Shown piece by piece: positions 5,064-64,000 of a stretch of 64,000 nucleotides of DNA. The notes below the pieces were generated by a model. It was given only the letters and a program-made list of their open reading frames with translations. It ran no database searches and had not been told where the DNA came from. The stretch is from Zygnema circumcarinatum SAG 698-1b (taxonomy: Eukaryota; Plantae; Zygnematophyceae). A program made the translations under genes and the position numbers. Within the stretch, counting starts at the first letter, position 1. The number at the start of each line of letters is the position of its first letter. Location: the NCBI GenBank assembly GCA_037447605.1, contig CM074819.1:2345580-2409579 (forward strand), written 5' to 3'.

Positions 5064-5650
5064 TTATTGTGTTATTGAAGTAGAGAGGATGTGGCATGGA
5101 TCTCACGATGGCGAGGCCATCAAATGTACATGGACAACATCAGCATCATGGGGAACCACGAGGAACTGGGCGCAAAGGACCTAAGCACAAAAGATAGAAG
5201 CTAGGGAGCGAAAAGCTACGCCTCGGCTCAACAACGCCAGCTCAGCGGCGGCTCAGCCCTCCCTCCAAGCACCCGCGACGGTCGCCGATCGATGTGCGGC
5301 ACTCGCATCACATCACATCGCGCGGAGGGAGGGAGGGAGGGAGCGGCGGAAGGCCACCGACACGCACGGCCACCAACAACCAAGCGCGGTTTCACGCCGA
5401 AGGAGCGGAGAAGCGAGGAGGAGGGCACCGCTGAAGGGCGGAAGACGGACATGCGCTGTCGATAAGAAAGTGGCGAGGATCGGCGGAGGAGGAGAGGAGC
5501 GCTTCCTTCCTTCCTTGCGGGGCCGTGCGCGCATCTCCACGGAGCGATCGATGGGCGCACGCACGCACTGGCGGAGGAAGGAAGGAAGGACGGCATCCAA
5601 ACGGGCGTCGAGGCAACCACATAACCTTTCCTTGGAAGGCTTCTTCAAAA
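5064..5650 (-). mobile_element. 5'-truncated copy of an RLE-type non-LTR retroelement (3' end of ORF plus 3' UTR)
   Basis: 5100-5230 aligns with 40415-40560 and 16956-17090. 5270-5620 aligns with 52578-52830. The minus-strand end reads TTCAATAACACAATAA. Confidence 0.7.
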
Positions 5651-16955: not shown

Positions 16956-17092
16956 GTAGTTTTCCGCTCCGAGCTTTTTTCTTTTGTGCTCAGGTCCTTC
17001 GCGTCCAGTAGTTCCTCGTGGTTCCCCATTATGATTTCGTCCATGTACATGTGATGGCCTCATCGCCATCGCGAGATCCATGCCACTTCCAT
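16956..17092 (+). mobile_element. 3'-UTR fragment of the same RLE-LINE family, opposite orientation
   Basis: Reverse complement aligns with 5085-5225, e.g. GATCTCGCGATGGCGA...CATGTACATGGAC...GGGGAACCACGAGGAACT...AAGGACCTGAGCACAAAAG. Confidence 0.75.
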
Positions 17093-24000: not shown

Positions 24001-27000
24001 TGCCGGCCCACGCCCCCTTCACCAACCTTCTTTTCAGAATGTCCACCAGTGTTCCGGTCGAAGTCTTCTTCAGGCCTAACATTTCTGCTTGATGAATCTT
24101 TCTGCTCTTTCCTCTGTCGGACGTCAAATCCTCCCACTGCATCAAAGTCTGCAGCAGCCTTGTCCCCTTCAGCCTGTTTTGCTTTTTCCGCCTTTCTGGT
24201 AATACTGTGACCATCAGAAACCCCTGCCTTTCTGTCCTTCCCTGATGCTTGCGTACAAGGCGCGAGAATGTCCTTGACTTCGCCTGTCTCTACATCGTCC
24301 GTCCGCTTCTTCAACACCTGAAGATCACTGGATCCACTTGGGCGCCTCTCCCGAGTATCCGGTGCACCTGGGCTGCTCGCAGGTCTCTTGCCTGCACCTT
24401 CATCAGAACTGTTCAACTCCACCTTATCCGTGAAGCCTTTCCTTTCCCGTGAACCTGCCCGGTCTCCTCTTCTCTTCACTGAAGACTCCTCCAAACCACG
24501 CAGATCTGGAAAAGAATTTGACCTCTGATTCCCAAGAGTATTAACTGGTCTTTCTTCAGAGTCCCCTGCACTCTTTGGGAGACTCAGAAAAGCCGCTGGT
24601 TCTTGAGAATGTGGCTCTGCTCCCTGGCCTAATGCTCCAAGTTCCTCCTCATCTGAAGAGCTGCCCCAATCTATCCCAGTATCCAACATTCTCCCTTCCA
24701 CTTCTAATGATGGTTTGTAAGCCTTAGATCCCGTTACATTAAGCCTACCCACCTTTCCTGCAAGCAATTTCGTAGCATCCGGTGCTCCTTTCATCGTAAA
24801 CGATCCAAGTTCCTCCTCTCGCTTATGTTGCAGCTCTGTTGTTGTAACGGGAACCCCAACCTCATTCACTCGTGATGTCGGAGGGACTGCATTTGATGCT
24901 GCTTTGCTAACATCCTTTCCTTTACCCGGTTCTCTTCCTATGGTCTCAGTAACAGTCCATATAACTTCTTGTTCATTGCCCTTTCCAAACACTCGCACAT
25001 TCCCTGACACCACGGACGTCCTTGTTCCTAATTGCCCCTCGACAGCCTCTGACAAGTCTTCTGCTTTCCCCAGTAGTCGCGCTTTAAGGCTCCTCAAAGA
25101 GCATACCAACGAGTCCTTCAGTGGAGACAGAAGTCCTCCCTCCGGCAAAAAGCTTGAAGTCATCACCTGTATGCGAAAGGACATTAAACTTCAGAGAACA
25201 ATCTTAAGCATGGTTACGCCGGGTGACTGATTTTGTTCATTGCTTTAGGAGCCAGTCCAATCCATAGTTAGTCAGTCAGTTTGGCTGTCCTTCCAACTGG
25301 AGCTCCTTGGTGAAGGATGCGCCTTGCGGTAAAAGGTTATGGTTAAATGAAGTCGGAAGTTGAAATAAAGGTAAAAGTTGCGAAGGTGAAGGTGGTGACG
25401 GTTGAAGGTGGAGGAAATCGTCATGAGGGTTGAGGTGAGGGCCATGGAAAGGGTTCTCGTCAACTTGCCATGAAGTTGTGGTGAAGTTTAAATGGAGAAT
25501 TCAGGTGAAAACCCCTATGCAGGTGTAAATGAAGGCTGGCGTGGAGGCCAAGCAATGATGCAGGTTAATGAAAATGAAGGTGTTGACAAAAAATATGAAA
25601 AAGGTTGCGATGAACGTCAATGTATGGTTGTGCTGGAAGCGTGAATGTATCAGTGAAGGCTATTATTCCAGGCGGCTAGTTCACCATAATTCTAAGAAAA
25701 CATGGACAGTGTAAACTATCAGCTAAAGAACACAGTTGGCATTGAGAAGCAGAAGGGGAACCTGCAAAATTGTCTGTGGACTGGGTGAGCGACCACAAGA
25801 CAGAGCTGAATGCTGCATAGTTTCAGGCAGCTTCAATGCCGGCAGTCCTCCCAGGTCAGGAGTGACGCTCTGCGGCCGTCCTTTGGAGTCCTTTTGCTGC
25901 AACGCGCTGCGTCCCTTGCCCGCTCCAAAGGCATCCCTGCCGGCAGCATGCGCCCCCCCCTTGCTCGCCGTAGTTCTGGGTTGTTCTTCCGCAGAGCTGG
26001 CAGCCTCTCCCTCGCCGCTATGCTCTGGGCCTGGTGCCAGCTCTCTGGGCACACTCAGCACCTGCAATGGCATGGCAGGTCATTAAACTCACGAACACAG
26101 CCTCACCATGAAGCAACGCACTGTTTCAACATGAAAGCCGCGGGACATAACATTCCCACATGTAGTCTCACTTCAAGGGGGGCGGAATGTTTTGCTGTGG
26201 CATTGAAGTGCTTGAGACGCTGTTCCCCAGGATTAGCTGTGACGGGTGCGAGAGGAGGACTCGGCTGAGGATGAGGAGCACGCATATGTGTCGGCAAGAA
26301 GGTTCCATATGAACCATAATGTGGTCCTGGAAGCACAACGAGAACACCATAACTGAGGTACAACTCCTAACAGAACTGGAGCAAGAGGAAGGCAAAGGAA
26401 GAAAGGCAAGGCTGCTCTTCTGTACATTTGTCACACACTTGCTACAATTTCCAATTAAGCGCGGATATAATAGCTTGAATCACCAATGCAGCAACTACTG
26501 CGATTCAGATAACACAGACAGAAAACACGAACACTCCCAAGCACAATCAAGCACTTCCATATCGAATACCATTATTCCAGCAAGTCAATTGAAAATATGC
26601 ATTTTGACCAAACACACGCAACCCCAATAACAAAATTATGCAGACGGTTTTGTAAGCTTCAAAACTCTAAATCCAAAAGCGATGCGAAAAAAAGTAACCA
26701 GAAAATCCCTTGCCATGTAAGAGCTTCATGACATACTTCAAAAATGAAAAAAGGAGGCCAGGACATGCATAGTGGACACGATTTTTGCTTCTCTGAACAT
26801 CTGCCTGTATCCTTTCCAATTGCACTAACCGGCTAATTGCATAGAGCATGCTTCGCTGTACTTAACAGTTTCAGAGAAAACACCGACCTGAACTTGAGAC
26901 AGTGCCTCTAAATTCGTTTTGCTTGTCGCCAAGGAGCGAGCGAATACGCCTTGTCAAATGATCCTCGTCCTGAAGTGAGAAGAAAAGAAAGAAAGAAATC

Positions 27001-33873: not shown

Positions 33874-33957
33874 CGCTGCCTGCTCCGATACAGATACAGC
33901 TCCTCCTCCTCCGCTCTCTCTGGCGAGAAGCGGTGTCGGCTGCCTCCCTCGCACTCA

Positions 33958-34049
33958 GGGTTAGGGTTAGAGTTAGGGCCGGGGCCAGGGTTAGGGTTAG
34001 GGTTAGGGTTAGGGTTAGGGTTAGGGTTAGGGTAAGGGTTAGGATTAGG
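33958..34049 (+). repeat. Interstitial telomeric tract with 7 perfect TTAGGG (33991-34032) plus degenerate units, 85 bp upstream of the SNF4 ATG
   Basis: Directly visible. Confidence 0.95.
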
Positions 34050-39739: not shown

Positions 39740-40143
39740 TAGGGTTGGGGGCACGGTCCCCCTCCGACCCGTGCCCAGGGGCACGTGCCCCCCCCCCCCT
39801 TGGGGGGGGGGCATGCCCCTTTTTCGTGCCCCGTGACGTGACTGCATTGAGCAATTCAAATCGGCCCAAAAAAGAATATAATATTTTAAAAACGGTACGG
39901 ATGAAGGTACGGAAAGTACAATCGTCACCGGCCCGGGCCCGGTCGTACGAGGTAAGCGTCACGTGACAGGGGGCACGGGGGGGCACGAAATATATGGGGA
40001 AAATTTTTGGAGGCGTGCCCCGGGCACGGACGGTCAAAAATGAGGGGCATGCCGCCCCCCCGGGCATGCCCCCCCCCGGGCATGCCCCCCCCCGGGCATG
40101 CCCCCCCCCCGGGCATGCCCGTGCCCCCGTGCCCCCAACCCTA
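39740..40143. mobile_element. 404-bp hAT-type MITE
   Basis: Perfect TIR TAGGGTTGGGGGCACGG at both ends. Exact 8-bp TSD GAGTGCAC at 39732-39739 and 40144-40151. Subterminal GGGCATGCCC/CGTGCCC repeats. Confidence 0.92.
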
Positions 40144-40404
40144 GAGTGCACCCGCCCCCCCCTGCCTCTGCCACTCTGCCCGAATCCAGATACGCGACCA
40201 CTCGTACCTTCCCAACTCCCCGCGCGCGACCGAGCCAGCGAGCGGTCTGTACGGGCTCCAGCGGGAACAGCATACAGTACAGTACAGTACAGTACAGTAC
40301 AGTATTCCCGCGGCCGGACCGAAGATGCCCGGACTACAGGTCCGTATGTATCGAACGCGTATATTAACAGTATATAATACGCCGTATAATACGTAACGCA
40401 AACT

Positions 40405-40571
40405 TTCATTGAACTCGCGATGGCGAGGCCATCAAATTTACATGGATAAAGGCAAAATGTGGAACCACGAAGGACTGGTCACAAAGGACCGAAACACAAT
40501 AAAACGAAGCTAGGAGCAGAAAACTACGCCTAGGCACAACAACGCAGCCCTAGAAGCAGCCGCGAAGGTCA
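40405..40571 (-). mobile_element. 3' part (UTR) of the RLE-LINE that hosts the nest; continues at 52573
   Basis: Aligns with 5100-5285. Joining 40571 to 52578 restores colinearity with the uninterrupted copy at 5230-5370. Confidence 0.8.
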
Positions 40572-40712
40572 TGTTAGTGTTAGTGTATGATAGTTAGACA
40601 TTGTATGGCACACACTAACTTGTTGTGGTACTCAGTTTGTAGAACATGAGATCTGCTAGGCGTAGTGCTCTTAGATTTAGGAATGTCGGTGCTCTGACTC
40701 AGGTGAGTGCGC

Positions 40713-40722
40713 CNNNNNNNNN
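40713..40722. other. Assembly gap; others at 10991-11000, 53371-53470 and 59795-59804, plus single Ns at 48338-48355
   Basis: Runs of N. Confidence 1.
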
Positions 40723-42848
40723 NCAACCCTCTTGGAAGGTCATCAGGGAAGACATCCCTGAATTCATCCAACAGAGGTTGGATCTGGGATGGAACAGCCG
40801 AGAGCACATCCGTGGATGTGATCTGCCATTCCTGATCTTCGTCATGAACATCCTCAGTGGCTGTCATGACATGCACCATGAACAAGGTGCATCCCTCCTT
40901 AACTGCTTTGGCCAACTGCATAGCTGAGCACAGATAAGGAGTAGCAGGCTGCTTGACAGCAGAGGATGTGGCTCTGCCAGGGTGCAGGGTAAGCCGCCTG
41001 TCACCACTGTGCAGAATGCAATGTGGGACAGAAAAGTCCATTTGTGCCTTGACCATGGTTAACCAAGCACTCCCCAAAATAACATCAGTTCCAGGGGCCA
41101 GTTGTGTTAGAAGACACTTGACTGCCCCGGAGTAGGATTGGAGCTTGATCTTGAGTGTGACGCTACCAGAGATCTGGCCCTTGCGTCCATCCCCGAAAGT
41201 AACACTTTCTGAATGGGGATCTGTGGTCAACCCAAATCTCTGGGTGAACGCAGAACTAACAAAGTTAGCATCTGCCCGATTGCTCAGAAGCTGGCGGGTG
41301 GCCATTTTGTGACGGCAGGGTCGTAACCCGCGATGCTTGGCAAGGTGGAACATAGGTCGCACTATATCGCGAGGTTGAGGGCAGACGTCCTCCACACCAA
41401 TAATGTGAGGCCAACGGCAAGGCGGTGGATCCTTCCATCACAAGTGCACCAGCGTGTGCCCTTTCCTGGCCCCGTGTCACCAACGCCAAGTGGGGGTTTG
41501 CGGGAAGGTCTTGACGCCATGTCTTGAGGAACGGCACATACCTGGCCTGGGATATATGGGAGGTGTTTCCCATGACATACGTACAAAACATCACATGGCG
41601 TGCATGAGAACATCGCCGTAGCCCATGACATTAGCGGATAAAGACATGCCAATCACCATTCATCCACGACATCCGCCAAACCCGAGGAAGAGTCACTACG
41701 ATTGGCGAGGGGAGGAAATGGAAACGAGGGGAGTGCATCACACACAAAAGGAGATGTACACGTTTCCCAAAAGGAGCACGCCAGCAATTTCAGAATATCC
41801 GAGGTTCTAAGAAACAAATGCTCCCTAGACACATGGCCGTCTCCATCCCCTCCCCTAACTAGCATGGCCACCAGCAAGCGACCCACTAGGCTGGCGGTGG
41901 GTTGCAGAATTTCGGCCCCCTTGCCCTTCACATCCTTGGCGTTGAGGAGGGCAATCCGGACTATGTGCCCCTCACTGCGGCAGCGAGTACTTGTTCTCCC
42001 ACATTTGCATCTTCTCCATTTCCTCACGAGGTCAACCTGGCGGCCGTGCGGTGGGTGGGCGAGCTTTGCCATCTTGGCCGGGGCTGAGGGGTCCGCCTTC
42101 CACGACCCTATCCGCGTCCTTACATTTCTGCGAGGGGTAAGGGAAGGGGAGCACATACTTGAGGGGGCGGTGTCAATTTGAATATGGCTGCATCAAAGTA
42201 AATTTCGAGTCGGCCGGGGGTCCCGCGGTTTTGATCCACGTGGGTTAGTTAGGAATTTGCTTCCTTAGGTCAATGGCTTCAAGCCATTCTGAGAGTGGAA
42301 AAAGAACTCAGCTTTGTCGGGCTTGTGAGTGGTGATCGAGGCACCACTTGCGCCAGTCTCGCGGCGCGGCCATTTGCGGTTTGGACCATGTTACGAAACT
42401 TATCCGGGCCTTCCCAAGCGGGATCCAAGGCCCAAAGTGTTTGATAAGTTCATCTCTGAACTTATCCCAATCGTCCCCAATCTCATCCGAGAGGCCCTCA
42501 TACACCCTGTATGCGGCGCCTCGGAGTGCTGGGTAAGCAAAGCTTACCCACTGGAGGGGGGGACAGTTGGTCGCCAGAAGGTAACCCTTCGTTTGACCCA
42601 ACCACTGCTCGATAGAGCAGTCCGTGGCAGGACGTTCAGCCCCAAACGGAAATCGGGGCCACCTTGGCCCGGTCCGTCGGGCATCCCTCCCGTGGAATTC
42701 TTGAGGAGAAGCGATCCGAGGCCCGGGATCTCCCCGCCCCGGCCGAGTACCCCGGCGGGGGTCCCCCCACTTCTTTGGGTGGTTATACCAGTGGGGGTGA
42801 CTCCCCGTGGAAAAGCCAGGGGGTCCGGACTTCTGCCGGCTGCTTTCG

Positions 42849-45800
42849 TGTAACAGCTGAGATCTGCCTCTTCAGCCTACGCGGAATCACACACCAGCAC
42901 TCAGCAAAACAGAGTTCAGATCGGGAGGGATTCAAAGAGAGAGAGAGAGCTTCAGAGGGTCGCGCAGCCCTAGGCAGGGGTGCAACCGAATGCCGGTACG
43001 TTGGTTGGGTGACGACAGTCACCCACGCCCCTTTACGCTTCCCCCGTCGAACCTCCTACCGGCATGGAGGATTGGGCGAGAACATCCAATAGCGCCATGT
43101 GTCCCCTCTCGACCCGAGATGGGTGAGAGGTGTCTAACATCTGAGCAGCTCACCGCATTCAGCCTTGGCCCGCCGCTGCCCAGCGCGCCCGCCGTACATG
43201 GTGTGGATCCCTACAGCCTTGGCCTTGAGTTACCGGCTTGTCGGCTACCGTTCGTACCAGGTACCGTAGTATGCAGACGAGCGGCGAGAACTAAAGATCC
43301 GGGCAGCGGCCCGAATCTATCGCCCAGAGACGGTGTTGGTCCCGTGGTGCAACCAATCCCCAATCACTCCCTTAAGCGAGGAGGGGCCCTTGGAAACAGC
43401 GGGTGTGCAGAGCGCCGCCGTGACTATGTAATTACCCCCGCGTGTAGACGGTCTTAGGTTTCGAACCTAGGACCTCCGTCGTCCTATAGGGTATCCGATG
43501 CTCTAACCGTTAGGTACTGCATTGGATGGAAACATAAAGCCACGCCGGGCTCTAAGTAACCCTTCCCCCTTGGGGTGACTGTAGCGTTTCGCTACATTAC
43601 TCCCCCCCTGTGAGAATGTGAACGCCCTCGTTCACGTGTGTGGGGTAGTAAAGGCAGCTCGTAGTTTCAACGGCACGCGTCGAACTCTACGTGATAACCG
43701 GGAGGGCTCAGCGATAATCCCGGTCAAGTCCCTTTCCGAGTTTAGCGGCGAGGGCGGCTACCGAGAACCCCGTGCGCCACTACGCCCAGCTCTCTGCGGC
43801 ACAAGCCTCCCCAGGTACAAGTTGATGATGAGCTCACGGCGGTGGTTAAGTTGCCCACCGACTCCCATGTGTATGTTCAACCCCATAGCCCAACCACTTC
43901 ACGAGGTATTCGTGACGGGAAGATCGACCCTTTCTCACAAGACGGTGGGCTTGAATGGTTTCAACTTCATACTCAAGTTCACCTTCAAGTTCCACTGGTG
44001 GGGGAGGTGGTTGGATCCTCCCATCGCTACGGTAGACCTTTAACAAACCCACATGAAAGACCGGATGCACGTTCATGTGGGATGGTAAATCCAACACATG
44101 CTTGACATCATTGATTAAGCTTCCGCGACTATAAGGTCCTATGAAGCGGGGCCCGCGGCTTCGTGTTCGCCATAGCTTTGAGTCTCAAGTTAAGCGTGCC
44201 AGCAACACCTCATGCGCCCCTTAGATTGAAGGTGAGTTGGAGTCTACGATGGCGGTCGGCATACTCAAACCTTTTATGCGCTGGCTAGGCGCTAGCGAGT
44301 GCGCGTGCCCTGCGGCGCCTCCGGACATTAGTCGGACAAAAGATCTGACTGCGGGAGGTTGAGTCCCATCAGTCCCTCTCAGCTTCCAAGGATCGGGGTT
44401 TCTGTGGACGCCCATGTTCCACGGATCAGGGGGCTGATCCCTTGGTTGCAGGGGATTTAGAGGATGCTGGCCAAAGTTCAAGAAGAAAGGGGTGGTACCA
44501 ATGGACTCCTGGTAAGCATTATTGATGGCATACTCAGCCCAGCGGGGCGATTCGTCCCACCCATCGGGTAGGTCCCACATAATGCGAGGAGGGGTAATCC
44601 CTCGAGGATCTGTTCACCCGTTCCGTCACGGCCATCGGTTTGCCCGGGTGGAAATTTACATCCACTCAACGCTGCCCGGGGTCCCAACGATTTTGAGCAC
44701 TTCCAGATCCGAATGGCGGTGAATGCGTGGATCCGCGGTCGGAACTACAATTCACGGTAGAAGACCATGTTCAGCTCCACACTTTGTAACGCTACAACCG
44801 TATTGTGCAATCTCGTCGGCTGGCCGGTCTTAGTTGGTTTGTCACCATCTTCTTCGACACGTCGACAAAGGCGAAGGATGGAGTCGTAATGCCCCGAGGT
44901 GTCACCGGAAGATCGTGATCAAGTCAGCACTACAACGTCCCATTTCCGAAATGGAGGTGTGAGGGGTTGCAGCTGGCCAGGGATCCTGCCAGTGCGGGGT
45001 TTGTTTCGTTGACAAGTTGGACAAGCGAGTACATACGCTTTCACATCCCTCGAGAGTCCAGGCCACCAGAACTCTCGGAGCAGTGCCTCACGGGTTTTGG
45101 CAACTCCCATGTGACCTCGGTACGGGAGGATCATGTAGCTCACCCAGAATGAGCTGCCGTACAGTCCCGGCCTTGGGCACGACCAACTGCTGGCCGTGGT
45201 ACCAGAATCCGTCCTTAGACACCACTTTGTCCTTATAGCCATTACCTTGGCCATCCAGGAACAAAGGATCACCGATGCCACCCTCACGGATCATCACATG
45301 CGAGGTCGGCGAGAGGCGGAGGAGAAGGAGTTGGCCTCCGTCAGCAGTGGGAGGATCTATGACAAAGCTTTATCTTGGAGGCGGAGGGCTTCGGGGTTGG
45401 CTTGACCCCTCACCTCTGTCATCGTTCCACCAACACTCAGTGGCAGGCACCATCGGGCAGATGCGGCTGCGGTGGAATTACCGCTACGTGAAGCCCTTAG
45501 GGCGATAAACCCGTGGCGGTCAGAGCCCAGCAGGAGAACTTCCGAGACCCGGCGTGCACACCCTAGAGCCGAGGGGAGTACATTGGGTTGAGAGCGTCAG
45601 CCCAGCCCGGTGGTCCGGTGAGCCCATGCGTGACCATCCTTAAGCCCCTCTAAAATGGCGCATGTGTCCTCGGGGGCGTGGACCCATGGCCGGGTTCTTA
45701 CGTTGCGATTTAGCGAGGAATGAAGTTTGGCGGGGTTCATTTTCGGCTTTCATGCGGCTGGGTTGGCCATCTTGAGCAAGGCCGGCACCCAAGGCGATCG

Positions 45801-48800
45801 AGCATCACAAACCACTTCATAAGGCGGGCCGGGTCCTTCATGAGGTAAGGTCGCGGTAACAAGTGCATAGCACACCCCGAATGCATTACGGCATTGGGGG
45901 TGTAGGGAACTTAGGAGCGTATGCCAAATTAGTCAAGGGAGTAACCAACTTACTAAACCCTTGGATGAACTTACGAAAATAGTTCGCAAATCCCAAGAAG
46001 GACCTCAACTGATGCAAGTCAGTCGGGGGTGCCCAAGTTTCTACCGCTGAAACTTTGGCAGGGTCTGGCCGAAGGCCCTGATCATTGAGAATATGCCCAA
46101 GATAAAGCAACTCGCGCTGCATGAAGTGACACTTCTTCCTCTTGGCATAAAATTGGTGTTTCCTCAGGGTCTCAAACACTTTCCGAACGTGTTCAAGATG
46201 TTCCTCCTCTGTCTCACTAAAGACAAGGATATCATCGAGGTAAACCAAAACAAACTCGTCCATGCCGATGAACATTTCGTTCATCACGGCCTGGAAAGTT
46301 GCCGGAGCATTAGTCAATCCAAAGGGCAAAACCTTATATTAGAAATGACCAATCGGCGTCCGGAACGCAGTTTTTGGCACATCAGCTTCCGTGACGCGGA
46401 TCTGATGATACCCCTGAGCAAGATCAAGTGATGTAAACACTTTGGCGCCGTGAAGACGATCCAACAGATCATCAATACGTGGTAAAGCAAAACGGTTCTT
46501 TACGGTGATCTTGTTGAGTGCGCGATAATCAATGCACATCCTCAACGAGCCATCTTTCTTCCCAACAAACAAGATGGGCGCCCCAAAGGGGCTTTGACTG
46601 GGTTCTATCCAGCCCTTGTCACGTAAAGTTGCCAACTGCTTTCGCATCTCTTCGGTTTCTTTCGGGCTTAACCGATAGATCGGCCGCCAAGGCGGCTTTT
46701 GCTCAGGCTCAAGAGGGATTGTGTGCCCCACTCCTCTAGATGGTGGCAACCCTCTTGGAAGGTCGTGGGGAAAACATCCACTGAACTCATCCAACGAGGG
46801 TTAGTTGTTTAGATTGAAACGACGAGAGCACATAAAGGCAGGTGTGATCACACTTGTTCTGATCTTCAAAGTAAGCTGAACATCACATAGGTGAAACACT
46901 TTAGGCACGCACTTATGAACAAGGTGCAGCAACTTCATACTTTACTTTGGCCAATTACACTGGCTGGCAGAGATAAGGAGCCAGAGGCACGTACTTGTGA
47001 GGATGTGGCTCTGCCCGAGGGAGTGCGAGGGGTGGCGCTACATGCCCATGTACAGTAATGAGACGAGAAAAGTCCATTTGATAGCTTTTGGCCCATGGGG
47101 TTTAACCAAGCGCACTCCCAAAAAATAACATGTTGCGGGGCGTTTGTTTGAGACACTTGTGCCCCGAGGGTAGGAATAGACTTGATCTTGAGTGTGGCAG
47201 TACAGAGATCTGGCCCTTGCGTCCATCCCTGAAAGTAACACTTTCTGAATGGGGATCTGTGGTCAACCCAAATCGCTGGGTGAATGCAGAACTAACAAAG
47301 TTAGCATCTGCCCGGTATCTAGCCGGTGATAGAAGCTGCTGGGTGGCCGATAGCGATCAGGAGTGAAGGTCGTAGCCCGCGATGGGCAAGGAATGGAACA
47401 TAGATGCGCTATATGCGAGGGTTTGGGGGCGGCAATCTCCACACCAATGTGTAGGAGTAGGCCAACGGCCAAAGTACGGTGGATCCTTCCACACCAGCGT
47501 GGCGCGCCTACTCTGGCCCACCCAACGCCGAAGTAAGCGTTGGGAAAGAGTGCAAACACCATGGCGAGAACCCGGCACATACAGCTAAGACATGAAATTT
47601 CCCACTTGACATACAGCGACCAGCAGCACATTGCATGAGAACATCATCATACATGACGTGAGGATAAAGGCCGTACTTGTCACCATTCATCCGAGCATCA
47701 TAAACCCCGGAAGAAAGTCACTACCGATTGGCGGGGAGAGAGAGAAATGGAAGAAGGGAGTACATCAAACACAAAGAGATCTTGCACTTCGAGAGGCCTG
47801 TCCACCAAGTCAAAAGAATGTCCAGGGTTCAGAAGCAGGTGTCGCTTTTTGCATCCACTGAGTAGCGGCCCCATTTCCCTCCCCTAGCCTAGCATGTCCC
47901 GGCCTTAGCGACCCTAAAGGCTGGCTGAGGGTGGGTTGGGGACACCTCGGCCCCTGCCCTTCTTGTCCGCCAGGGGTGTTGGGAGGGGGCTTGATGGGGC
48001 CTGTACTCACTAGCACGACTTGTGAGAACACTTGTTTACTCCCCGTGCGTAGCTACTCCATTTCCTCACGAGTCAACTTACTGGCGGCCGTGCGGTGGGT
48101 GGGCGGGCAGCCACTTCCGGCTGCTTGCGCTTGTTCTTTCCTGCCAGTTTGGCAGGAGCTGAGGGTCCCGCCTTCCACGACCCTATCACGTCGCCCGACC
48201 TCTGCTGGGGTCGGGAAGGGCCTGCATCGCCTGCAGGGGCGGCGTCCAACTGAATGGCTGCATCAAAGTACAGCTCAGAGTCAGCGGGGTCCCACGGTTT
48301 CAGAGTCCGTGGGTTAGTTCTTAGCTGCTTCCTCAGGNNTGGNTTCAAGNCATTNCTAAAGTGGAAAAAGAACTCAGCCTGTCCAGGCTTGTGAGTGGTG
48401 ATTTGGGGCACCACTTGTCCTTGAGTCTCCTTGGCGCTTTAGCGGCGCGGTTTGGACCATGTTGCGAAACGCTCCGGGCCTCCAAGCGGGATCCAAGGCT
48501 AAAAGTGTTTGATAAGTTCATCACCAAACTTATCCCAGTAAGTGCTGAAGAAATCTCATGGGGGCTCACTACGGTATCTTTGGCTCCTCACGAGTGCTGA
48601 ATAGCCGAGAAGCTTACCCAACTGGAGGGCAGTTGGTACTTGAAGATAAGCGCCGTTTGGCCAACCCTTTGCTCAATGAGCGTACGGTCCGTGGTAGGAT
48701 GTTAAGCCCCGAGGAAGAGGGGCTACCTTGGCCGATTCATTGGGGCATCTCGTGGGACTGGGGGGCAGTCAGGGGCGGATCTCCCTCCGCCGCCCGGCTG

Positions 48801-50176
48801 ACTGCCAGGCGGGGGTCCCCCCCTTCTTCAGGTGGTTGCGCCCACCCATTGGTGACTTCCCCGTGAAACCGGGGGTCGGACTTACGCGAGCCGGGCAGCT
48901 GGCGGTAGAGGCTGCTGTCGGGGCGAGCGGCGCTACGGAAGGTGGTTTTGCTAACCCTTCCCGGGGACTGCTTTGCATCCGCACGCCTCTACGGCTGAGG
49001 GGGTTGGGCATACCTTCTTGATGGTCGAACTTTGTCGAAGAGCTCCGAACTCAGCCCAGGCGTAATCCCACCGGCAGCGGACCCGTGAGCTCCATGTCGT
49101 CCACCTTCCTTGAGCAGCTCAACGTATTCACGTTCTGCTCCCTCACGCTCTTCCCCAGATCCTCAATCCTGTTCCTCATCTTCTGGGCCGCGCCCACGGT
49201 GATGTGGGCCCCGATCATGGGGTAGGGGCCCAGTTGAGGCTTCTACCGGAGCCACGGGCTCCGGTTGGGTGGGGAGAGGGGCGGGATTCTCCGGGTGACC
49301 TTGATCACCCGTGGGCTCGAGACTTCGGCCCCTCAGGTGGCGTGATCTCGAGTTCTCCTCCATCTCCTGGTCGGGGCAGGAGGTGGGGTGGCGGCCCGAG
49401 AACTGCAGGGTCCCTCCGGCCCGGCGTAAGCGTTACCGCTGACGCGGGTTCTGACCGAGAAGGCGCCGCTCGATACCAATATGAGATGCACTCTTGAAGC
49501 TACACGGAATCACACACCAGCACTCATTAAAAGCGGGGGAGGGATTGAGAGAGAGAGAGAGCAGGAGGGTGGCGCAGCTGGCGAGGGGTGCAACCGAATG
49601 CGATGCGTTGGTTGGGTGACGTGAGTCACCACGCCTGCAGCTCCAGGTGGGGCCCTCCTACCGGCATGGAGGTTAGGCGAGCACGTCCAATGGCGGACTG
49701 CCGCGTGTCCTCTCGACCCGAGATGGGTGAGAGGTGTAACATCGAACGCTCACCCGCATTCGCGGCGCCCGCTAACAGCAGCCCAGCGCCGCCCGTACAT
49801 GGAAGTGCAGTGGATCACAGCGGCAGCCTTGGATTCGGCTTGTCGGCTACGTCGACACCAGCGGGTACCCGTAATTATGCAGCCCAGACGAGCGGCCAGG
49901 CCAAAGGGGATCCGGGCGCGGCCGAGATCCAGCGAGACGAGATTGAGATTGGTACTTATCCCAATCACTCCCGCCAAAGCGAGGGAGGGACCTTGAGCTG
50001 GCGAATTGTGTGGCGCCGTGACTTATGTGAATTGCCCCGTGGCCGAACCCGTTCTTCTGGTCACATAGGGTATCCGATGCCTAACCCGTTAGATGCGCAT
50101 TGGATAAAACATAAAACCACGCCCGGGCCCTAAACCCTTCCCCTTGAAAAATTGGCCCCGTAGCGTTTAAGCTACA
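42849..50176 (-). mobile_element. Ty3/gypsy chromovirus 'B/C' (inner, degenerate): 5' LTR 49480-50176, PBS 49468-78, gag-PR, RT 45886-46794, integrase 44200-45300, chromodomain 43846-44097, PPT 43597-43610, 3' LTR 42849-43596
   Basis: RT motifs [34 protein letters not shown] and YLDDIL. Integrase Zn finger HMG...WWPGLSRDV...CPTCQRNK. Chromodomain HPVFHV...EYEVETIQAHR...YLVKWLGY. Confidence 0.93.
43447..43523 (-). promoter_or_regulatory. tRNA-like Pol III A-box/B-box cassette in chromovirus LTR U3 (homologues 51390-51462 and 50041-50100)
   Basis: Minus strand reads TACCTAACGGTTAGAGCATCGG...GGAGGTCCTAGGTTCGAAACCTAA. B box GGTTCGAAACC (43457-67) sits inside a T-arm-like stem. The A-box-like segment is at 43503-16. 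Confidence 0.55.
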
Positions 50177-52572
50177 TTTACGGCAGCAGTTGGGGCCTCG
50201 GAACCCGAGCAGCGCTACGGGTAGATTTCACCACGCACTTTTCTACTAACGCTGAGGACTGCTTTGCATCCACTTGCCTCGGCTGAGGGGGGTTGGGCAT
50301 ACCTTCACCGATCCTCGGGAACTGTCCGAAAGGCCCGAACTCCGACACAGGCGTGTCCGCAGGCGGACCGTGAGCTCCATGTCGTCCACCTGCCTTGTAC
50401 AGGCCATGGTGGCCACGCGCTGCTGCCTTACATCCGCTCCTAGTTCGTCGATCTTCTTCTTCATCTTCAGGGACGCGCCCACCGTGATGTGGGCCCGATC
50501 ATGGGATCGGCGGATTCTGCCGGAGCCAGCGGCTCCGGTGACGCGGGGAAAGGGGCAGCAGTCACCGGATGACCTTGGTCATCCGTGGGCTCGGGACTGG
50601 GCCCCTCCATGGGGGTGGCCGCAGTCTCCGAGTTCTCCTCCATCACCTCGTCCCGAGGGACAGGTGGTGGAGGTGGCGGTCCCGAGGGCCCCGGGTCCCC
50701 TCCGGCCCGGCGAGTGGTCACCATGACCCGCAGGTTCTCTTTCAAGGAGAAGACCGCAACGCGGCTCTGATACCAATGTAACAACTGAAAAACGCCTCTT
50801 CAGTCTGCGCAGAATCACACACCAACACTCCGAGTTCAGCGAGAGAGGGCAGGAGAGAGAGAGAGAGAAGCTTCGGCGGTGGCGCAGCCGATTGAAGTGC
50901 TGGAAACGGAAATGCGGTACGTTGGTTGGGTGGCGTTCACCCCGCGCCCCTTCACGCTTCCCGTTGAACCTCCTACAGCATGGAGGATTGGAAGCGAGAA
51001 CATCCAATAACGGCTTCCTGCGTGTCCCTCCACGACCGAATGATGGAGGAGTACCACAACGTAAAACTCACGCATTCAGCGCTGGCCAGCGCGCGCGGCA
51101 TAGCGGCTTGCCCGCCGCAAATGCGTCGATTACGGTCGGATCCCTACAGCGGCGTGGCGCGGGGATTCGGCAGCCGGCCCTCGATCGTACCTGCTTGAGG
51201 TACCGTAATTATGCGGACGAGCGGCGAAATTCAAAGGGGATCGGGCGCGGCCGAGATCAACTCCAGCGGACGGCGGATTGGTCCGTGGTCTTGCGACAAT
51301 CCCCAATCCTCCCTTAAGCGAGGGGAGGGACCTTGGGCTGGCGGTGTGGTAGCACCCGTGACTATGTGGTACTTGCGTGTGAATTTCCGGTTCTTACGGT
51401 TGAACCTAGGACCTCCGTGGTCCTATAGGGTATCCGATGCCCTAACCGTTAGGTACTGCATTGGATGAAAACATAAAGCCACGCCGGGCCCTAAGTAACC
51501 CTTCCCCCTTGGGGTGACTGTAGCGTTTCGCTACAGAGACACTACTAGTGAACAGCAGATTGATTGGGCTAGGGCCCATGAGGGCCCGAGATCCCAAAGA
51601 GGGGGATTATTGGTATTGGTGTATGATAGTTAGCAGACATTGTGGCACACACTAACTTGTTGTGAATTTTCGGTTTGTAGAACATGAGATCACGCTAGGC
51701 GTGGTGCTCTTAGGAATATGATTACTTTCATTTCGGTGGAGTGCTTGTGAGTCTTGGCGTCTGGTGGCGCTGATTGAATGCATGGCCCGACACATGTCTT
51801 GTGAGGAGAGCGGTTAGCATAGCTTTGGATAATGGTCGCCCGGCGTAGCAGCGAGGCGCCAAAGGATTGGCGGCGGAAGCGACATAAGAGATATTTGGCC
51901 CGAACGAGATGCGCCCGTGGACCGCACTGCGCCAATGTGGATCACATGAGGTTGATGCTCACGGCGAAGTGTGTGGTGAGGCTGGGAAGGAAGCGGCTGG
52001 CGAAGCGGCCAGCTATGCCGGACGGTGTGCGAGCCACGACAAGAACTAGGTGCGCGTGGGTTTCTGAGGCGACTGGCGGTCGGCTGCGCTACCGGTGACC
52101 CGCTGGGACCGGTGCATGGGTTTGCAATGGCGGTGGCGGCGTGACATGTGTGTCACGTCGCGGGGCCTTTCATATTATATAGTGCATAGTTTTTATTATG
52201 GGAGTAACCCCACCCACTACTTTGTCATAGTCTGGGTCTTGATACGTGCTGCTTTCCGTCTTTGCTAGGCTGCCTACACTTATTAATGAGTGAGGTAGTG
52301 GAGTGAGAGGGACCTTGAGTAGTGGGAGAACTTCATTAATGGGAAGGCAGGTTTTATGTCTCTAGGGGTTTTAGAGCCGTGAGCTGCTCTAACACTCTCT
52401 CTGTGATTTCATTTGTGCTTGTCTTGTAGCTTCATTCTGTTGTTATGGGCGATGAGTGAAGTAAGATAGAGCTTTGAGTGTTTGAATGTCTTCATCCGTG
52501 GGAACTCAAGTTCCAATGGAGGGCGACACCCAAGGTGGCGCCGGAAGTGGGGAGCAAACCCCTACTTCAACA

Positions 52573-53370
52573 GGTCACCGATGTGAGGCACGTCGCGAGG
52601 AGGGAGCGGCGGAAGTCCACCAACACGGTCACCAACAGCTTCTGCCGACGCGCCCAGTAGCGTAGAAGCCGAGCAGCGGCGAAGGAGGCGGCGGAAATCG
52701 CGATTTACAGCCGATAAAAAGGTAGCCAAGATGCGGAGGAGGGCTTAGGGGCCGTGCATCTCGAAAGGCGATGCGGCACTGGCGAAGAAGGTATCCAAAG
52801 CGGGTGGCCGAGGCAGCCAAAAACCTCTCCAGCCAGCCATAGGAACAAACTTCGTCGGCTGCATCCGCGGTGAGCATATGCGCTCGCTAGCGAGAAGGGG
52901 CGCATGTGACAGCCGCGCCTTCATGATGTGCTGCCGCGCGTGACAATAAATTCGCGGCGGGTTGGATGCGGTAACACAATATCCCCAAAAATCGCCCGGG
53001 CACCATCCATAAGAGCCGTCGAGGCCGAACTCAGCTGCGCTGCGCGAATAGTCGGCCATTAGAAAGGGGACCTGCCCAGGTGGCTGGCTCCGTCGCTGAG
53101 TGGTTAGCTTCTTGAGCCACCGCGTGTCGCGTGCGTACAACATTATGAGCCAAAATCGTTAGCCCGATGTGCACATGAGTAGATGAACGCCACAGCATCA
53201 ATGAATCACCACAAGCACAGCGAGGGAGAACCCTGCAATGGCGGATGGGGGAGCCGAGGGAGGCAGTCGGCGGCTGCCGGCAGCCTGGGGGTCAAGCGAA
53301 GGGTGGAAAATATGGGGATGAAGCCAACCAAGCCCGGCCCGGGACCGCGCGCTGAGAAAGCGAAGCGAGC
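52573..53370 (-). mobile_element. Degenerate C-terminal ORF2 of an RLE-type (CRE/R2-group-like) non-LTR retrotransposon
   Basis: Frameshifted motifs in the expected order: CACG (53208-22), H...AHNVVRD (53124-51, after removing one 4-bp duplication), GDIVLPHP (52960-86) and KFVPMA (52833-55). Confidence 0.6.
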
Positions 53371-59383: not shown

Positions 59384-62300
59384 TGTTGGAAACTAGAGCC
59401 TGGTCTCTCTCACTTGCTGCACTCTCAGACATGCTTGTAATTCAGCGAACACACCCACCCCCAATGCACACACCGGAAAGAGAATGAAAGCTGAAAAGAA
59501 AAGAACACCGAGAAGTGAAGTAAGAGGAGAAAGCCCCACCGGCTCAAAACTCCTTAAAATAGATGAGAAGGGTTACACAAAGAAATTCAGCCCTCAGGCG
59601 ATTCCTACTGCTCTGCCCTACACTCCTATCTACTGCTGCCCATACAGCAGGCCTCTACACTCAGCACCACGAGCCGAGATGCAAGGTTCTAAGGGTTACT
59701 AACACTATGCACTAAGCACACTAAATACTAGCCGCTGAAGCACCTCCACGTTCCACCGCGTGTCACCGCGTTCCACCTCCATGTCGTCGAGGTCNNNNNN
59801 NNNNCAGAAGGATGTCCTTCGCATATTTCTCCTGAGAGAGAAATAAGCTCCCCTCCTGCCCCCTCTTGAGCTGGATCCCTAATAGATACTCTGCCTCTCC
59901 TAAGTCTGACATCTGGAAGTTAGACTTGAGGAGGTCCTTGAGGTTCTGAATTCCGGCCATGGAGGGGCTGATGATGATGAGGTCGTCCACGTATATCCCC
60001 ACATACAGCAGCTCGTCCCCCTCTCCCTTGCGGTAAACTGAATGGTCTGTCCGAAACCTGGTGAAGCCATTCTCCTGCAAGAGCTGGTCAATTTTCTCGT
60101 ACCAAATGCGAGGGGCTTGCTTAAGCCCATACAAGCTTTTAACCAGCCTGCAAACCAAGTGTTCCTCGCCTTCTTTCACCGTGCCCTCTGGCTGGTCCAT
60201 GTAGATCTCTTCCTCTAGGTCACCATAGAGAAACGCAGTTTTGATGTCAAGCTGGTGCACGTGCATTTTCTCAGCAGCAGCTATGGAGATTAAGGACCTG
60301 AGGGAGTTAAATTTCACGACAGGGGCAAAGGTTTCAGAGTAGTCCAGGCCGTATTTCTGGCTGAACCCCTTTGCGACCAGTCTGGCCTTATACCTATCGA
60401 TGCTCCCATCAGATTTTCGTTTCACCTTAAAGACCCACTTGCAGCCTATAGCTCTCCTACCCGCTGGCAGGGCCTCCAGCCGCCATGTCTGATTCTCCAT
60501 TAGACTACCTAGCTCGCTCTCAATGGCTGTCTCCCACTTCTCAGCATCTGCCCCCTCTAAAGCTTCAGAGAGAGTTTGGGGCTCGGCTATATTCACCATC
60601 ATGGCCTCAGCCATTCCCACGAAGTCTGAGGAGTCGTTGGGTACTCTCCTCCTCGAGCCTCTTGGTCCGCTCACGTCGTACACGGAGGAGCTGTAGCGGT
60701 TGGACGGCCTCCGGTGCCGTGCTCCCCGAGTTCCTCCCTGTACGGCTACAGCGGGTAGAGGCACATCATTCTGTTCGAACTCAGAAGGTGATGATTCAGA
60801 ATGTACGGACGGTTGATCCGGAAGTGGTCGGTTAAGAGACGCGAAAATTTCGCGTAATGATCTCTCGCGTCGCGCCACCGCTTCGTGACCGGGACCTGTC
60901 CGGCGGACAGTTGTCGGTAGATCTTGTCCTGTCGGTGAATCAATCTCAACCGTTGGTGAGGCGCCGACCGGCGCATCTCCATCGTCCTCTTCATCGCGGA
61001 CTGGTGACGCGACGCCTACTGGCGCATCTCCACCGTTCGTTCCTTCTCGCGCCGCCGAATCTTCGCCGTCCAAATCATAAAAGATCTTGAAAGAATCTTT
61101 TGGCGCGCCTTCTCCACTAGAATTCACGGGAACTTGATCTGGGTGATCCTCTTGGAACTGAAGGTCTCGGCTCCGCTCCACTTGCCTCGTTGCCGGATTC
61201 CACACTCGATACGTGGGGCTGTCCTCATTGTAACCTATCAAATAACCTGGAGTGGATCGCTTCTCGAACTTTGAGTTTCTCCTGGCCTTGAGTACGGTCA
61301 CGTAGCACCGGGCGCCCCAGACTCTGAAATACGCCACCGAGGGCTTTCTCCCGCTCCAGACCTCCTCCGGCACCTTGTCTTGGAGGACTCTGGACGGGCA
61401 CCTGTTTCTGATATGGGCAGCAGCCATCACTGCCTCACCCCAGAATGACAGGGGGAGTGTAGACTCACTCAACATCGTCCTTGCCACATCCCCTAGCGTG
61501 CGGTTCACGCGCTCCGCTGCTCCATTACTCTGAGGGGAGTAAGGGGCAGCAAACTGGTGCTTCATACCAGTTTCCTCGAAGTGGTCCTTGAAGGTCTTCG
61601 AGATGTACTCGCCTCCATTGTCAGACCGAAGTGTCTTGACCTTGAGGCCGGTCTCCCTCTCCACCTCAAGCTGCCACTTCTTGAATGCATCAAAAGCCTC
61701 ACTTTTGCTCTCTAGCATCCGCACCCAAACCTTCCGAGAAAAGTCATCCAAGAATGTAATGAAGTACCTCGAGCCTCCATTGCTTGTGGGAGTAATCGGT
61801 CCACACAAGTCACTATGGATGAGCTCGAGCTTCTCCTTGGCTCGGCTCTCCTCGGTACTCCGGTGGCTGAAAGGCTGGAGGTGAGCCTTTCCAGCGAGGC
61901 AGTCTTCGCAGACTCCTTCCTTCGCTCCCTTCATCCGCATCCTGATGCCTCGTACAAGGCGCTTGTTCACCAGCGTCTTCAAGCTTTGAAAGCCTAAGTG
62001 GCCCATTCTCCGGTGCCACAAAGCTGCCGCTGGATTTTCAGAGATAGTGTTCACTTGGATGGTGGGGGGTCTTACTCCGTTCAGGAGGTAAAGACCATTT
62101 TCTTCTGTTCCCTTCAGAACCACCTTCCCGGTTAGTGTGTCAAAAACCTCACACTCCTCTCCATTGAACCACGATACATACCCCTTCTTTCCTAGCTGGC
62201 TCACTGAAACAAAGTTATTCTGGAGTCCTGGGGTATGGAGGACTTCGCCCATTACGACGATCCTCTTTGTCTCTCCTTCGTGGGTCTCAAACGCCACGGA

Positions 62301-64000
62301 TCCACCTTGAGTGACCTGCACTCCTTCTCCCGTTGCAGCGTAGACGGAACGTGCAGTTCCCAGTGTCTTCAGATCTGCAAAGGAGGACGCTTCCGAGCAC
62401 ATATGCTTGGAAGCTCCCGAGTCAATCAGCCATGGAACAGCGGGTTTCTTGTCACGTACCCTTCCCACGAATTCTGCCCTCTCAACGGCAGCACGTGGGC
62501 CTTCCTTCATCATCAGGACTGTCTCCTTGGCTTCACTTCGGCAAACTGCCGACTTGTGGCCTTTCTTACCACACTTGAAACAAGTTCCACCGAAAGTGGT
62601 CTGTTTCTTGCTCGGTTCTCCACTGGGTGCCTCGTCCTTCTTCACGGGTCTTCCCTTGTTCCGAAAGCATTCCGTCGAGAGATGGCCGGGCTTCCCACAG
62701 GTGAAGCATGTGAGAGCCTTCTTGTCTCCCCGGTCACTCTTCCCCTTGTTCCTCCCAGAAGATGCCGACCGAATTAGAAGGACGTTATCAGGGCCTAGCT
62801 TCTCCCTTTCAAACAGCAACTCACATTCTCTGATTCTCCCCTTTACTTGCTCCAACGTCATAGGCAGACAAGTTAGTTGGGTCCTCAAAGATTCTATTGC
62901 ATGAGAATATTTGCCTGTTAGTCCTACCAGAAACTGATGAATCTGACTAGGTAAGGGAATGGGCTGTTTCGACACTACGCACTTCTGCATAAGGCTGTCG
63001 AATTTGACCATGTAGTTAGTCAGGGTCTCACCCTTCTCCATTTTGAGTGCACCCAATTCAGCATACAGATTAACGGGCAGCCCCCCCTCTGCAACTTCAT
63101 ACACCGCCTGAAGACTCTTCCACATTTCAGCAGCAGAAGTCAGGTCTACCAGCATGGCTGAAGGTGCATTGCCTACGCTCATGGCAATGTAGCCTGCGGC
63201 TTTGTAGTTCTTCTCTCGCCACAGCTCGTATGCCTTCTTGACCGCCGCCCCCTCAGAGTCGGCCGGGAGAGGTGGTTCTTGGATGGTGCCGTCAACGTAC
63301 TTGAGCAGTCCCTTGCTCTCAAGCAGATACCTCATCCTCCACCTCCATGTTCTGAAGTCTGTCCCCTCGAAGATTGGGACCTTATACCTGGGCTCCTCCT
63401 CTGAGGATGCTCTGATACCACTGTTGGAAACTAGAGCCTGGTCTCTCTCACTTGCTGCACTCTCAGACATGCTTGTAATTCAGCGAACACACCCACCCCC
63501 AATGCACACACCGGAAAGAGAATGAAAGCTGAAAAGAAAAGAACACCGAGAAGTGAAGTAAGAGGAGAAAGCCCCACCGGCTCAAAACTCCTTAAAATAG
63601 ATGAGAAGGGTTACACAAAGAAATTCAGCCCTCAGGCGATTCCTACTGCTCTGCCCTACACTCCTATCTACTGCTGCCCATACAGCAGGCCTCTACACTC
63701 AGCACCACGAGCCGAGATGCAAGGTTCTAAGGGTTACTAACACTATGCACTAAGCACACTAAATACTAGCCGCTGAAGCACCTCCACGTTCCACCGCGTG
63801 TCACCGCGTTCCACCTCCATGTCGTCGAGGTCGCTCCGCGCCTTCTGGAGTTCGCTCCGCGCCGCGCGGGAGCTCAGCTCGGGAGGCCGCCATGGGGAGG
63901 GGAGCGTCCGTACCGAAACTCCCTTCCGAAAGCTCCTCTGTCGCTCCGAACCTTCCGCGCTCCTTCGCGTCTCCAATAATCCGTACTAAGCTAACTCGAA
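59384..64000 (-). mobile_element. Young Ty1/copia LTR retrotransposon: 5' LTR from 63422 to at least 63832 (may run past the window), PBS-Met 63409-20, 3' LTR 59384-59794 cut by gap
   Basis: The LTR copies appear identical over 411 bp at offset 4038 and end in ...CCAACA. PBS TGGTATCAGAGC. Confidence 0.96.
59805..63470 (-). CDS. Copia gag-pol polyprotein (gag, two CCHC knuckles, protease, GAG-pre-integrase, integrase, RT; RNase H lost in gap)
   Basis: Stop-free ORF of >1200 aa. Motifs CFTCGKPGHLSTEC, CFKCGKKGHKSAVC, WLIDSGAS, WHRRMGH, LIHSDLCGP, LRSDNGGEY, RYKARLVAKGFSQ and YVDDLI. Confidence 0.96.

What the first reader, a model, noticed from the sequence alone, without database searches (positions are those of the whole stretch)
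43447..43596. tRNA-like Pol III cassette built into chromovirus LTRs, in their best-conserved segment
About 70-150 bp into each LTR, on the element's sense strand, is an A-box-like TACCTAACGGTTAGAGCA followed ~35 nt later by GGAGGTC-CTAGG-TTCGAAA-CCTA. That is a canonical B box in a T-arm stem, laid out like positions 8-65 of a tRNA (resembling the Ile-type GGTTAGAGCGTCG...AGGTCGCAGGTTCGAGACCT), but without an acceptor stem. All three LTRs keep an exact 16-mer ATAGGGTATCCGATGC here while diverging heavily elsewhere. The first 17 nt of the LTR also form a perfect hairpin, TGTAGCG-AAA-CGCTACA. Established: Cassandra TRIMs carry 5S-derived Pol III promoters in their LTRs, and TFIIIC-bound B boxes act as insulators. 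Inference: this family may use a captured tRNA/SINE head as a Pol III promoter or chromatin boundary, a tRNA-type analogue of Cassandra. I do not know of a described case.
Basis: partly seen in the sequence, partly recalled or inferred. Interest (0 to 1): 0.8.

Follow-up and report, generated by a model that had tools for sequence, protein, structure and literature searches.

The report
tRNA-like motifs in algal retrotransposon LTR
The first 145 bases of an abundant algal jumping gene's end-repeat carry a weak look-alike of two tRNA arms, complete in only one of the three copies here; it is likely a decayed captured tRNA piece inside a conserved, predicted hairpin rather than the element's promoter, and tRNA-like end-repeats are already described (Helenus elements).

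Summary
The motifs are real in LTR A (43596-42849, minus strand): a D-loop-like A box at 43516-43499 and a B box in a T-arm hairpin at 43467-43457. They are not in 'each LTR'. LTR C's B box is broken and LTR B has none. The resemblance is modest. A split-box tRNA profile scores it 20-25.5 bits, best in the window (chance about 1e-4 to 1e-3 per LTR). A cloverleaf model gives 10.7 bits, E 0.61, against 10.0 for the next site. ARAGORN and Rfam find no tRNA. What all three LTRs keep is the 16-mer between the boxes, which completes a predicted helix with sequence upstream of the A box (8 of 8 pairs invariant, no covariation). The B-box half is the least conserved stretch between A and B. Public contigs show the head, including the B box, is shared by many copies, so a functional TFIIIC site is not excluded (about 20%). 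Pol III is unlikely to drive the coding element, whose 5.9-kb interior has 13 T4+ runs. The 'tRNA analogue of Cassandra' is published (Helenus, PMC10886601); only its presence in a coding chromovirus would be new.

The parts
42849..43596 (-). LTR A (748 nt, TG...CA), 3' LTR of the inner Gypsy/chromovirus element
   Evidence: PPT directly upstream
43580..43596 (-). terminal 7-bp hairpin with 3-nt loop (LTR positions 1-17); perfect in A and C, imperfect in B
43488..43563 (-). predicted three-way junction: P1 (34-38 with 105-109), P2 (43-49 with 56-62), P3 (70-78 with 96-104)
   Evidence: 96.6% of 59 cells paired in three LTRs, P3 8 of 8 pairs invariant, no two-sided change
43499..43516 (-). A-box / D-loop-like motif (weak: 5.3 bits); lies inside the loop of P3
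43486..43501 (-). 16-mer identical in all three LTRs; 3' strands of P3 and P1; falls where a tRNA anticodon arm would be and does not fold as one
43454..43475 (-). variable-loop plus T-arm-like stretch with B box GGTTCGAAACC (43467-43457), part of a longer hairpin 43474-43450; intact only in LTR A
43600..43609 (-). polypurine tract
   Evidence: sequence
43849..46800 (-). broken pol: RT (45886-46800, one stop), integrase H2C2 (44922-45290), Tf2-like SH3 and chromodomain (43849-44184)
   Evidence: Pfam; frames
49480..50176 (-). LTR B, 5' LTR of the inner element, followed by a Met-type PBS; no B box
50777..51535 (-). LTR C, 5' LTR of the outer element; first 134 nt 97% identical to A; B box broken
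50763..50775 (-). primer-binding site TGGTATCAGAGCC (plant-type initiator Met; assignment recalled)
40724..42848 (-). continuation of the outer element's gag/protease region, interrupted by the B-A element

Best explanation
This is the hairpin-rich head of the LTR of an abundant algal chromovirus, and one common LTR type carries in it a look-alike of a tRNA's D loop and T arm that is likely a decayed, captured tRNA or SINE head rather than the element's promoter. Shown: the LTRs, PBS, PPT, RT, integrase and chromodomain; the motifs in LTR A; their loss in B and C; sharing of the head by many public contigs. Predicted: the head folds into three helices, and the helix that encloses the A box is what all three LTRs keep. 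Inferred: the head is held constant as a replication or Pol II cis-element at the start of U3; related LTR types exchange it by template switching, which would explain A and C being 97% alike for 134 nt and about 75% beyond; the tRNA-like piece rides along in it; the 5.9-kb coding element is transcribed by Pol II.
For: Boxes intact in 1 of 3 LTRs. A-B identity lowest across the B-box half. The invariant 16-mer lies between the boxes and pairs with sequence upstream of the A box (probabilities 0.9-1.0; 8 of 8 pairs invariant), a pairing foreign to a cloverleaf. First 120 nt of A fold at z -3.8; 0 of 32 background windows go below -2.5. For a tRNA origin: best site of the window under three models; split-box score 20.0/25.5 bits against 11.4/11.7 for the next site; null 11 and 1 of 12 million positions. 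Against use by Pol III for the element: 13 T4+ runs in the 5,881-nt interior; Kojima argues that autonomous partners must use Pol II.
Against: No covariation supports the helices (0 of 20 pairs with a two-sided change, three sequences only); B and C fold only at z -1.5 and -1.9 on the sense strand. GGTTCR stands at the aligned place in all three LTRs, the core that Helenus keeps. Several divergent contigs (10, 14 and 25 other letters) align up to exactly 43460, inside the B box, and none of the 15 listed variants lies in 43452-43489, as a kept B box would give. No donor tRNA was identified, and the resemblance may be chance.
Confidence: 0.4

Rival explanations
1. Chance mimic: the LTR head is rich in short inverted repeats with 3-nt loops, and a GGTT-NNN-AACC hairpin reads as a B box by itself; nothing came from a tRNA.
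For: A strict B box is expected 1.30 times per shuffled window. Covariance model E 0.61, next site 10.0 bits. The A box scores only 5.3 bits. The spacer is 31 nt against 25 in type I tRNAs, with no anticodon or acceptor stem. Three perfect hairpins with 3-nt loops lie in the first 142 nt of A or C. 3 of 100 shuffled windows reach the HMM score, which a scan of very many windows will meet often.
Against: Joint score reached by only 1-11 of 12 million null positions. The variable-loop motif AGGTC precedes the T stem. Real tRNA genes carry the same D-loop and T-arm words (found with a pattern made from this LTR, so biased).
Confidence: 0.33
2. Functional type-2 Pol III element: TFIIIC binds the B box in the main subfamily, acting as a chromatin boundary for the Pol II promoter or driving a roughly 600-nt LTR-internal RNA that would end at the T4 at 42909.
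For: Contigs in 4 of 4 runs carry LTR A's sequence through the whole B box and stem to 43452; divergent contigs align up to the B-box core. YGG and GGTTC, the Helenus cores, are in all three LTRs. LTR A scores within the low range of real tRNAs on the split-box profile (5th percentile about 18, median 35-38).
Against: TRGCY of box A is absent in all three LTRs; the B box is broken in 2 of 3; no standalone SINE-like copy in the window; alignment ends may be clipping effects; no expression or binding data.
Confidence: 0.2
3. Primer-tRNA contact: U3 at the RNA's 3' end pairs with the initiator tRNA, as in Ty3's bipartite PBS; LTR positions 35-50 are complementary to the initiator anticodon arm.
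For: With the anticodon core of one fetched initiator-type tRNA, the best duplex of the whole LTR lies at positions 31-33 onward in A, B and C (0, 3 and 1 of 150 shuffles as good). With the other core variant B and C pass (0 and 2 of 150) and A does not (40 of 150). Ty3 precedent read in passages of PMC5371799.
Against: Noticed first, tested after. The host's initiator tRNA is unknown; viral proxies were used. T-arm and D-arm probes show nothing (20-144 of 150 shuffles as good), yet those are the arms Ty3 uses. The same AGGGTTA word occurs in the Copia repeats in the other orientation and is the TTAGGG-repeat word. It does not explain the A/B boxes, which are in tRNA sense.
Confidence: 0.07

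Closest known systems
Helenus / TRIMp3 (Kojima 2024, PMC10886601; read parts 1-4 of 6 and passages; supplements not seen)
   Same: tRNA-like sequence inside an LTR, in element sense, with YGG and GGTTC cores, no functional tRNA; PBS and PPT present.
   Different: Helenus are non-coding TRIMs of 311-1263 bp with TRGCY in most box A copies; the only plant case is Selaginella. Here the element is about 7.3 kb with gag/pol remnants, TRGCY is absent and the B box is broken in 2 of 3 LTRs.
Cassandra (5S promoter in TRIM LTRs; passages of 10.1101/2023.07.14.548913 and PMC10886601)
   Same: Idea of a captured small-RNA-gene segment in an LTR; Met PBS.
   Different: 5S (type 1) rather than tRNA (type 2) boxes, non-autonomous, Pol III transcription shown. 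None of that is shown here.
Chlamyvir-clade chromoviruses (Neumann et al. 2019, PMC6317226; passages)
   Same: Algal host, tRNA-primed, chromodomain with aromatic residues at the cage positions (read by eye) after the integrase.
   Different: No tree was built against reference elements, so the clade is inferred. The passages read say nothing on tRNA-like LTR sequence.
Ty3 bipartite PBS (PMC5371799; passages)
   Same: Ty3/gypsy element primed by initiator tRNA; a U3 sequence that could pair with it.
   Different: Ty3's U3 pairs with the T and D arms; here only an anticodon-arm complement is seen, and the T-arm look-alike is in tRNA sense.

Membership tests
Helenus / TRIMp3 | short non-coding TRIM (311-1263 bp) | tested here: not met
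   5,881-nt interior with RT, integrase and chromodomain remnants
Helenus / TRIMp3 | box A with TRGCY and YGG | tested here: inconclusive
   CGG in 3 of 3 LTRs, TRGCY in 0 of 3; A-box score 5.3 bits
Helenus / TRIMp3 | box B with GGTTC | tested here: met
   GGTTC aligned in 3 of 3; full GTTCRANNC in 1 of 3
Helenus / TRIMp3 | PBS and PPT | tested here: met
Helenus / TRIMp3 | 4-5 bp target-site duplication | tested here: inconclusive
   flanks of the B-A element match at 3 of 5
Helenus / TRIMp3 | Pol III transcription from the LTR | not testable with these tools
   only contigs were served, no raw RNA reads
Cassandra | 5S-derived boxes in the LTR | tested here: not met
   no 5S match in Rfam at E<=10
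tRNA gene / pseudogene | cloverleaf, covariance-model score above background | tested here: not met
   ARAGORN 0; 10.7 bits, E 0.61 against 26-72 bits for 10 real tRNAs
Chromovirus (Ty3/gypsy) | RT before integrase, chromodomain at the integrase C-terminus, LTRs, PBS, PPT | tested here: met
Chlamyvir clade | placement on an RT/RH/INT tree with reference elements | not tested
   no named reference set fetched; inferred from host, PBS and chromodomain
Retrozyme (ribozyme in LTR) | hammerhead, twister or pistol fold | tested here: not met
   no ribozyme family in Rfam at E<=10

The most novel reading that the evidence does not exclude
A protein-coding algal chromovirus whose dominant subfamily keeps a captured tRNA head in U3 as a working TFIIIC site, insulating its Pol II promoter from heterochromatin or making a roughly 600-nt Pol III RNA from each LTR: a coding counterpart and possible source of Helenus-type elements.
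Probability: 0.2. Interest if true: 0.6.

Novelty: new variant of a known kind. Interest (0 to 1): 0.3.

Why it matters
tRNA-like LTRs are known from miniature non-coding elements, where a Pol III promoter can transcribe the whole element. In a 7-kb coding element it cannot, so a kept B box would need another role (boundary, or short LTR RNA), spread over many copies in an algal relative of land plants. On present evidence it is a borderline resemblance in one LTR type, and the better-kept feature is a predicted helix of unknown role.

Tried and rejected
No whole genome is held for this window, so no genome-wide LTR alignment was possible. Pattern scans for the LTR head gave only unrelated loci: 1 in metagenomes (bacterial RHS region), 17 in viral contigs, 1 in prokaryote genomes; blastn of the 21 loci then held against the window found nothing at E 1e-3. 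The RT found no relative in viral contigs. Rfam: no tRNA, 5S or ribozyme at E<=10 in 40000-53000 or 43420-43600. ARAGORN with lowered thresholds calls LTR A only at 85%, on both strands and with folds other than the proposed one; at 75% all three LTRs give 3-6 calls each. Initiator-tRNA origin of the T arm: 14-20 of 22 identities to 72 fetched initiator-type tRNAs (mode 17, but they were found with a T-loop pattern) against 6-19 for the tRNAs (mode 14); the D-arm side does not match, so no donor is assigned. A scan for a plant-type initiator gene found none. Sequencing runs: no RNA holder listed, best share of words 0.32; X20's RNA status is a guess and contigs cannot show starts. 'Landing pad' lead from earlier findings: the one nested insertion here lies in gag about 600 nt past LTR C, not just upstream of the boxes, and no joints were listed (39 loose ends not shown). 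Twister, pistol and hammerhead resemblances considered by eye (motifs recalled) and dropped after Rfam. Literature searches for a tRNA-like LTR in an autonomous element (listings only unless stated) showed none in the open library; the Helenus supplements, not seen, may list such Repbase LTRs.

Full report
Setting. The finding covers the first 150 nt of LTR A (43596-42849, minus strand). Two more homologous LTRs lie at about 49480-50176 (B) and 50777-51535 (C). B and C are each followed by a TGGTATC-type primer-binding site, and A is preceded by a polypurine tract. Between B and A lie broken RT, integrase, SH3 and chromodomain frames, so this is a chromovirus. The B-A element interrupts the gag region of the C element: the piece before B and the piece after A align end to end on B's own interior. 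The flanks match at 3 of 5 bases, and A and B are only 75% alike, so the B-A element is a recombinant, very old, or an assembly mosaic. The host is inferred to be a streptophyte alga: the SNF4-like gene's best hits are labelled Mesen1 and SM scaffolds (read as Mesotaenium and Spirogloea, recalled), with short exon matches of about 60-85%. No genome is held.

Observation. In LTR A the motifs are as described: A-box-like 81-98, B box 130-140 in a TAGG/CCTA stem, terminal hairpin 1-17. The 16-mer is in all three LTRs. The B-box consensus matches only A (1 of 3). C keeps GGAGGTCCTAGGTTCAA and then breaks; B keeps GGTTCG in a shorter, different context. A and C are 96-98% alike over the first 125 nt. 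A and B are 0.78-0.86 alike there, as in other parts of the LTR, and 0.54-0.56 across the B-box half, the lowest of the LTR. The 16-mer is the longest three-way run, followed by 13, 13 and 12.

How tRNA-like is it? ARAGORN finds nothing and Rfam no tRNA at E<=10. I built models from tRNA genes in fetched viral contigs, leaving out those that matched the search pattern. A sequence HMM from 152 of 344 unique tRNAs ranks 43508-43456 first in the window at 10.4 bits; 1 of 3000 LTR shuffles and 3 of 100 window shuffles reach that. Held-out type I tRNAs score 24-40 bits, two long-arm ones 8-10. A covariance model from 60 tRNAs gives 10.7 bits, E 0.61, on the T arm only, with the next site at 10.0; 10 real tRNAs score 26-72. 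A split A-box/B-box profile gives A 20.0 bits (core) or 25.5 (with variable loop), of which the A box gives 5.3. The next window sites are 11.4 and 11.7, the latter being LTR C; B shows nothing on the sense strand. The null rate is 11 and 1 of 12 million positions, about 1.4e-3 and 1.2e-4 per LTR. A strict B box alone is expected 1.30 times per shuffled window. The spacer is 6 nt longer than in type I tRNAs, and neither anticodon nor acceptor stem forms. The training tRNAs are viral, not the host's. My estimate, an inference, is about even odds for a tRNA origin. No donor could be assigned.

What is conserved. The invariant 16-mer lies between the boxes, where Helenus shows no noted conservation. 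It forms the 3' strands of two predicted helices: P3 (70-78 with 96-104; probabilities 0.9-1.0), which encloses the A box, and P1 (34-38 with 105-109). With P2 these give 20 pairs, 96.6% of 59 cells paired in three LTRs, P3 8 of 8 invariant, and no two-sided change. The structure is therefore compatible with the data but not proven. The first 120 nt fold at z -3.8 in A, -1.5 in B and -1.9 in C; 0 of 32 background windows go below -2.5.

Family-wide evidence. Contigs of coded organism A lie on 43452-43596 in the hundreds (471, 262, 61 and 5 laid in four runs). Fifteen variants at 1% or more are listed, all in 43490-43566; at 43502 most depth carries LTR C's base. In 4 of 4 runs some contigs follow LTR A through the whole B box and stem to 43452 and then continue differently, so the B box is not private to this copy. 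Contigs with 10, 14 and 25 other letters align up to 43460, inside the B box, and some run on unaligned. That fits a kept GGTTCGAA core, or a recombination breakpoint at a strong hairpin, or alignment clipping; the tool does not give the letters to decide.

Mechanism. Most likely the head of U3 is a structured cis-element shared among LTR types by template switching (recombination during reverse transcription is reviewed in PMC6894440; abstract start and one reference seen), and a decayed tRNA or SINE head sits in it in one common type. Pol III is unlikely to copy the element: the 5,881-nt interior has 13 T4+ runs, and Kojima argues that autonomous partners need Pol II. If the box works, its product would be an LTR-internal RNA ending at the T4 at LTR position 688, or it is a TFIIIC boundary. 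Rivals: chance mimic by a hairpin with a 3-nt loop (0.33), functional TFIIIC site (0.2), pairing of positions 35-50 with the primer tRNA's anticodon arm (0.07, post hoc).

Known cases. The tRNA analogue of Cassandra is published as Helenus, in fungi, animals and Selaginella, and the paper notes that 'not a few' Repbase LTRs hold tRNA-like parts (PMC10886601; parts 1-4 of 6 and passages read, supplements not seen). This element fails Helenus membership on size and coding capacity. Six searches of the open library listed no autonomous chromovirus with such an LTR; most subscription papers are not covered. Earlier AI notes describe similar claims in other genomes; they are leads only.

Verdict. 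Observation partly confirmed, interpretation partly supported, concept known. New variant of a known kind; interest 0.3.

Noticed in passing
window 33957-34047: Interstitial (TTAGGG)n array just upstream of the first matched exon (33846) of the SNF4-like gene on the minus strand; 10 of the 24 AGGGTTA matches in the window (5.2 expected in all). Possibly a telo-box array.
   Followed up: partly
window 59384-63721: Copia element with an open 1238-aa frame, a Met-type PBS and 100% identical 300-nt LTRs; the identity runs on for 411 nt (59384-59794 = 63422-63832) next to an N gap, so a tandem copy or an assembly artefact is possible.
   Followed up: no
window 43547-43562 (also LTRs B and C): LTR positions 35-50 are complementary to the anticodon arm of initiator-type tRNAs; also contain the AGGGTTA word found in the Copia repeats.
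   Followed up: partly
window 42950-43078: Second conserved LTR block with CCAAT-like words in both orientations and predicted hairpins, covered by many public contigs; a (TC)n tract follows near LTR position 650. Candidate Pol II promoter region.
   Followed up: no
window 43573-43596 and 43545-43596: Public contigs share only the first 24-30 or 52 nt of the LTR and then diverge, suggesting other families or non-autonomous partners with the same terminal hairpin.
   Followed up: no
window 40574-40674 and 51610-51713: A 100-nt direct repeat (85%) brackets the whole nested element cluster on both sides.
   Followed up: no
window 5087-5237, 16956-17090, 40407-40545: Three copies of a 130-150-nt interspersed repeat, 76-83% alike, in both orientations.
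   Followed up: no
window 19750-25190: Large exons of a CW-type zinc-finger protein gene on the minus strand.
   Followed up: no
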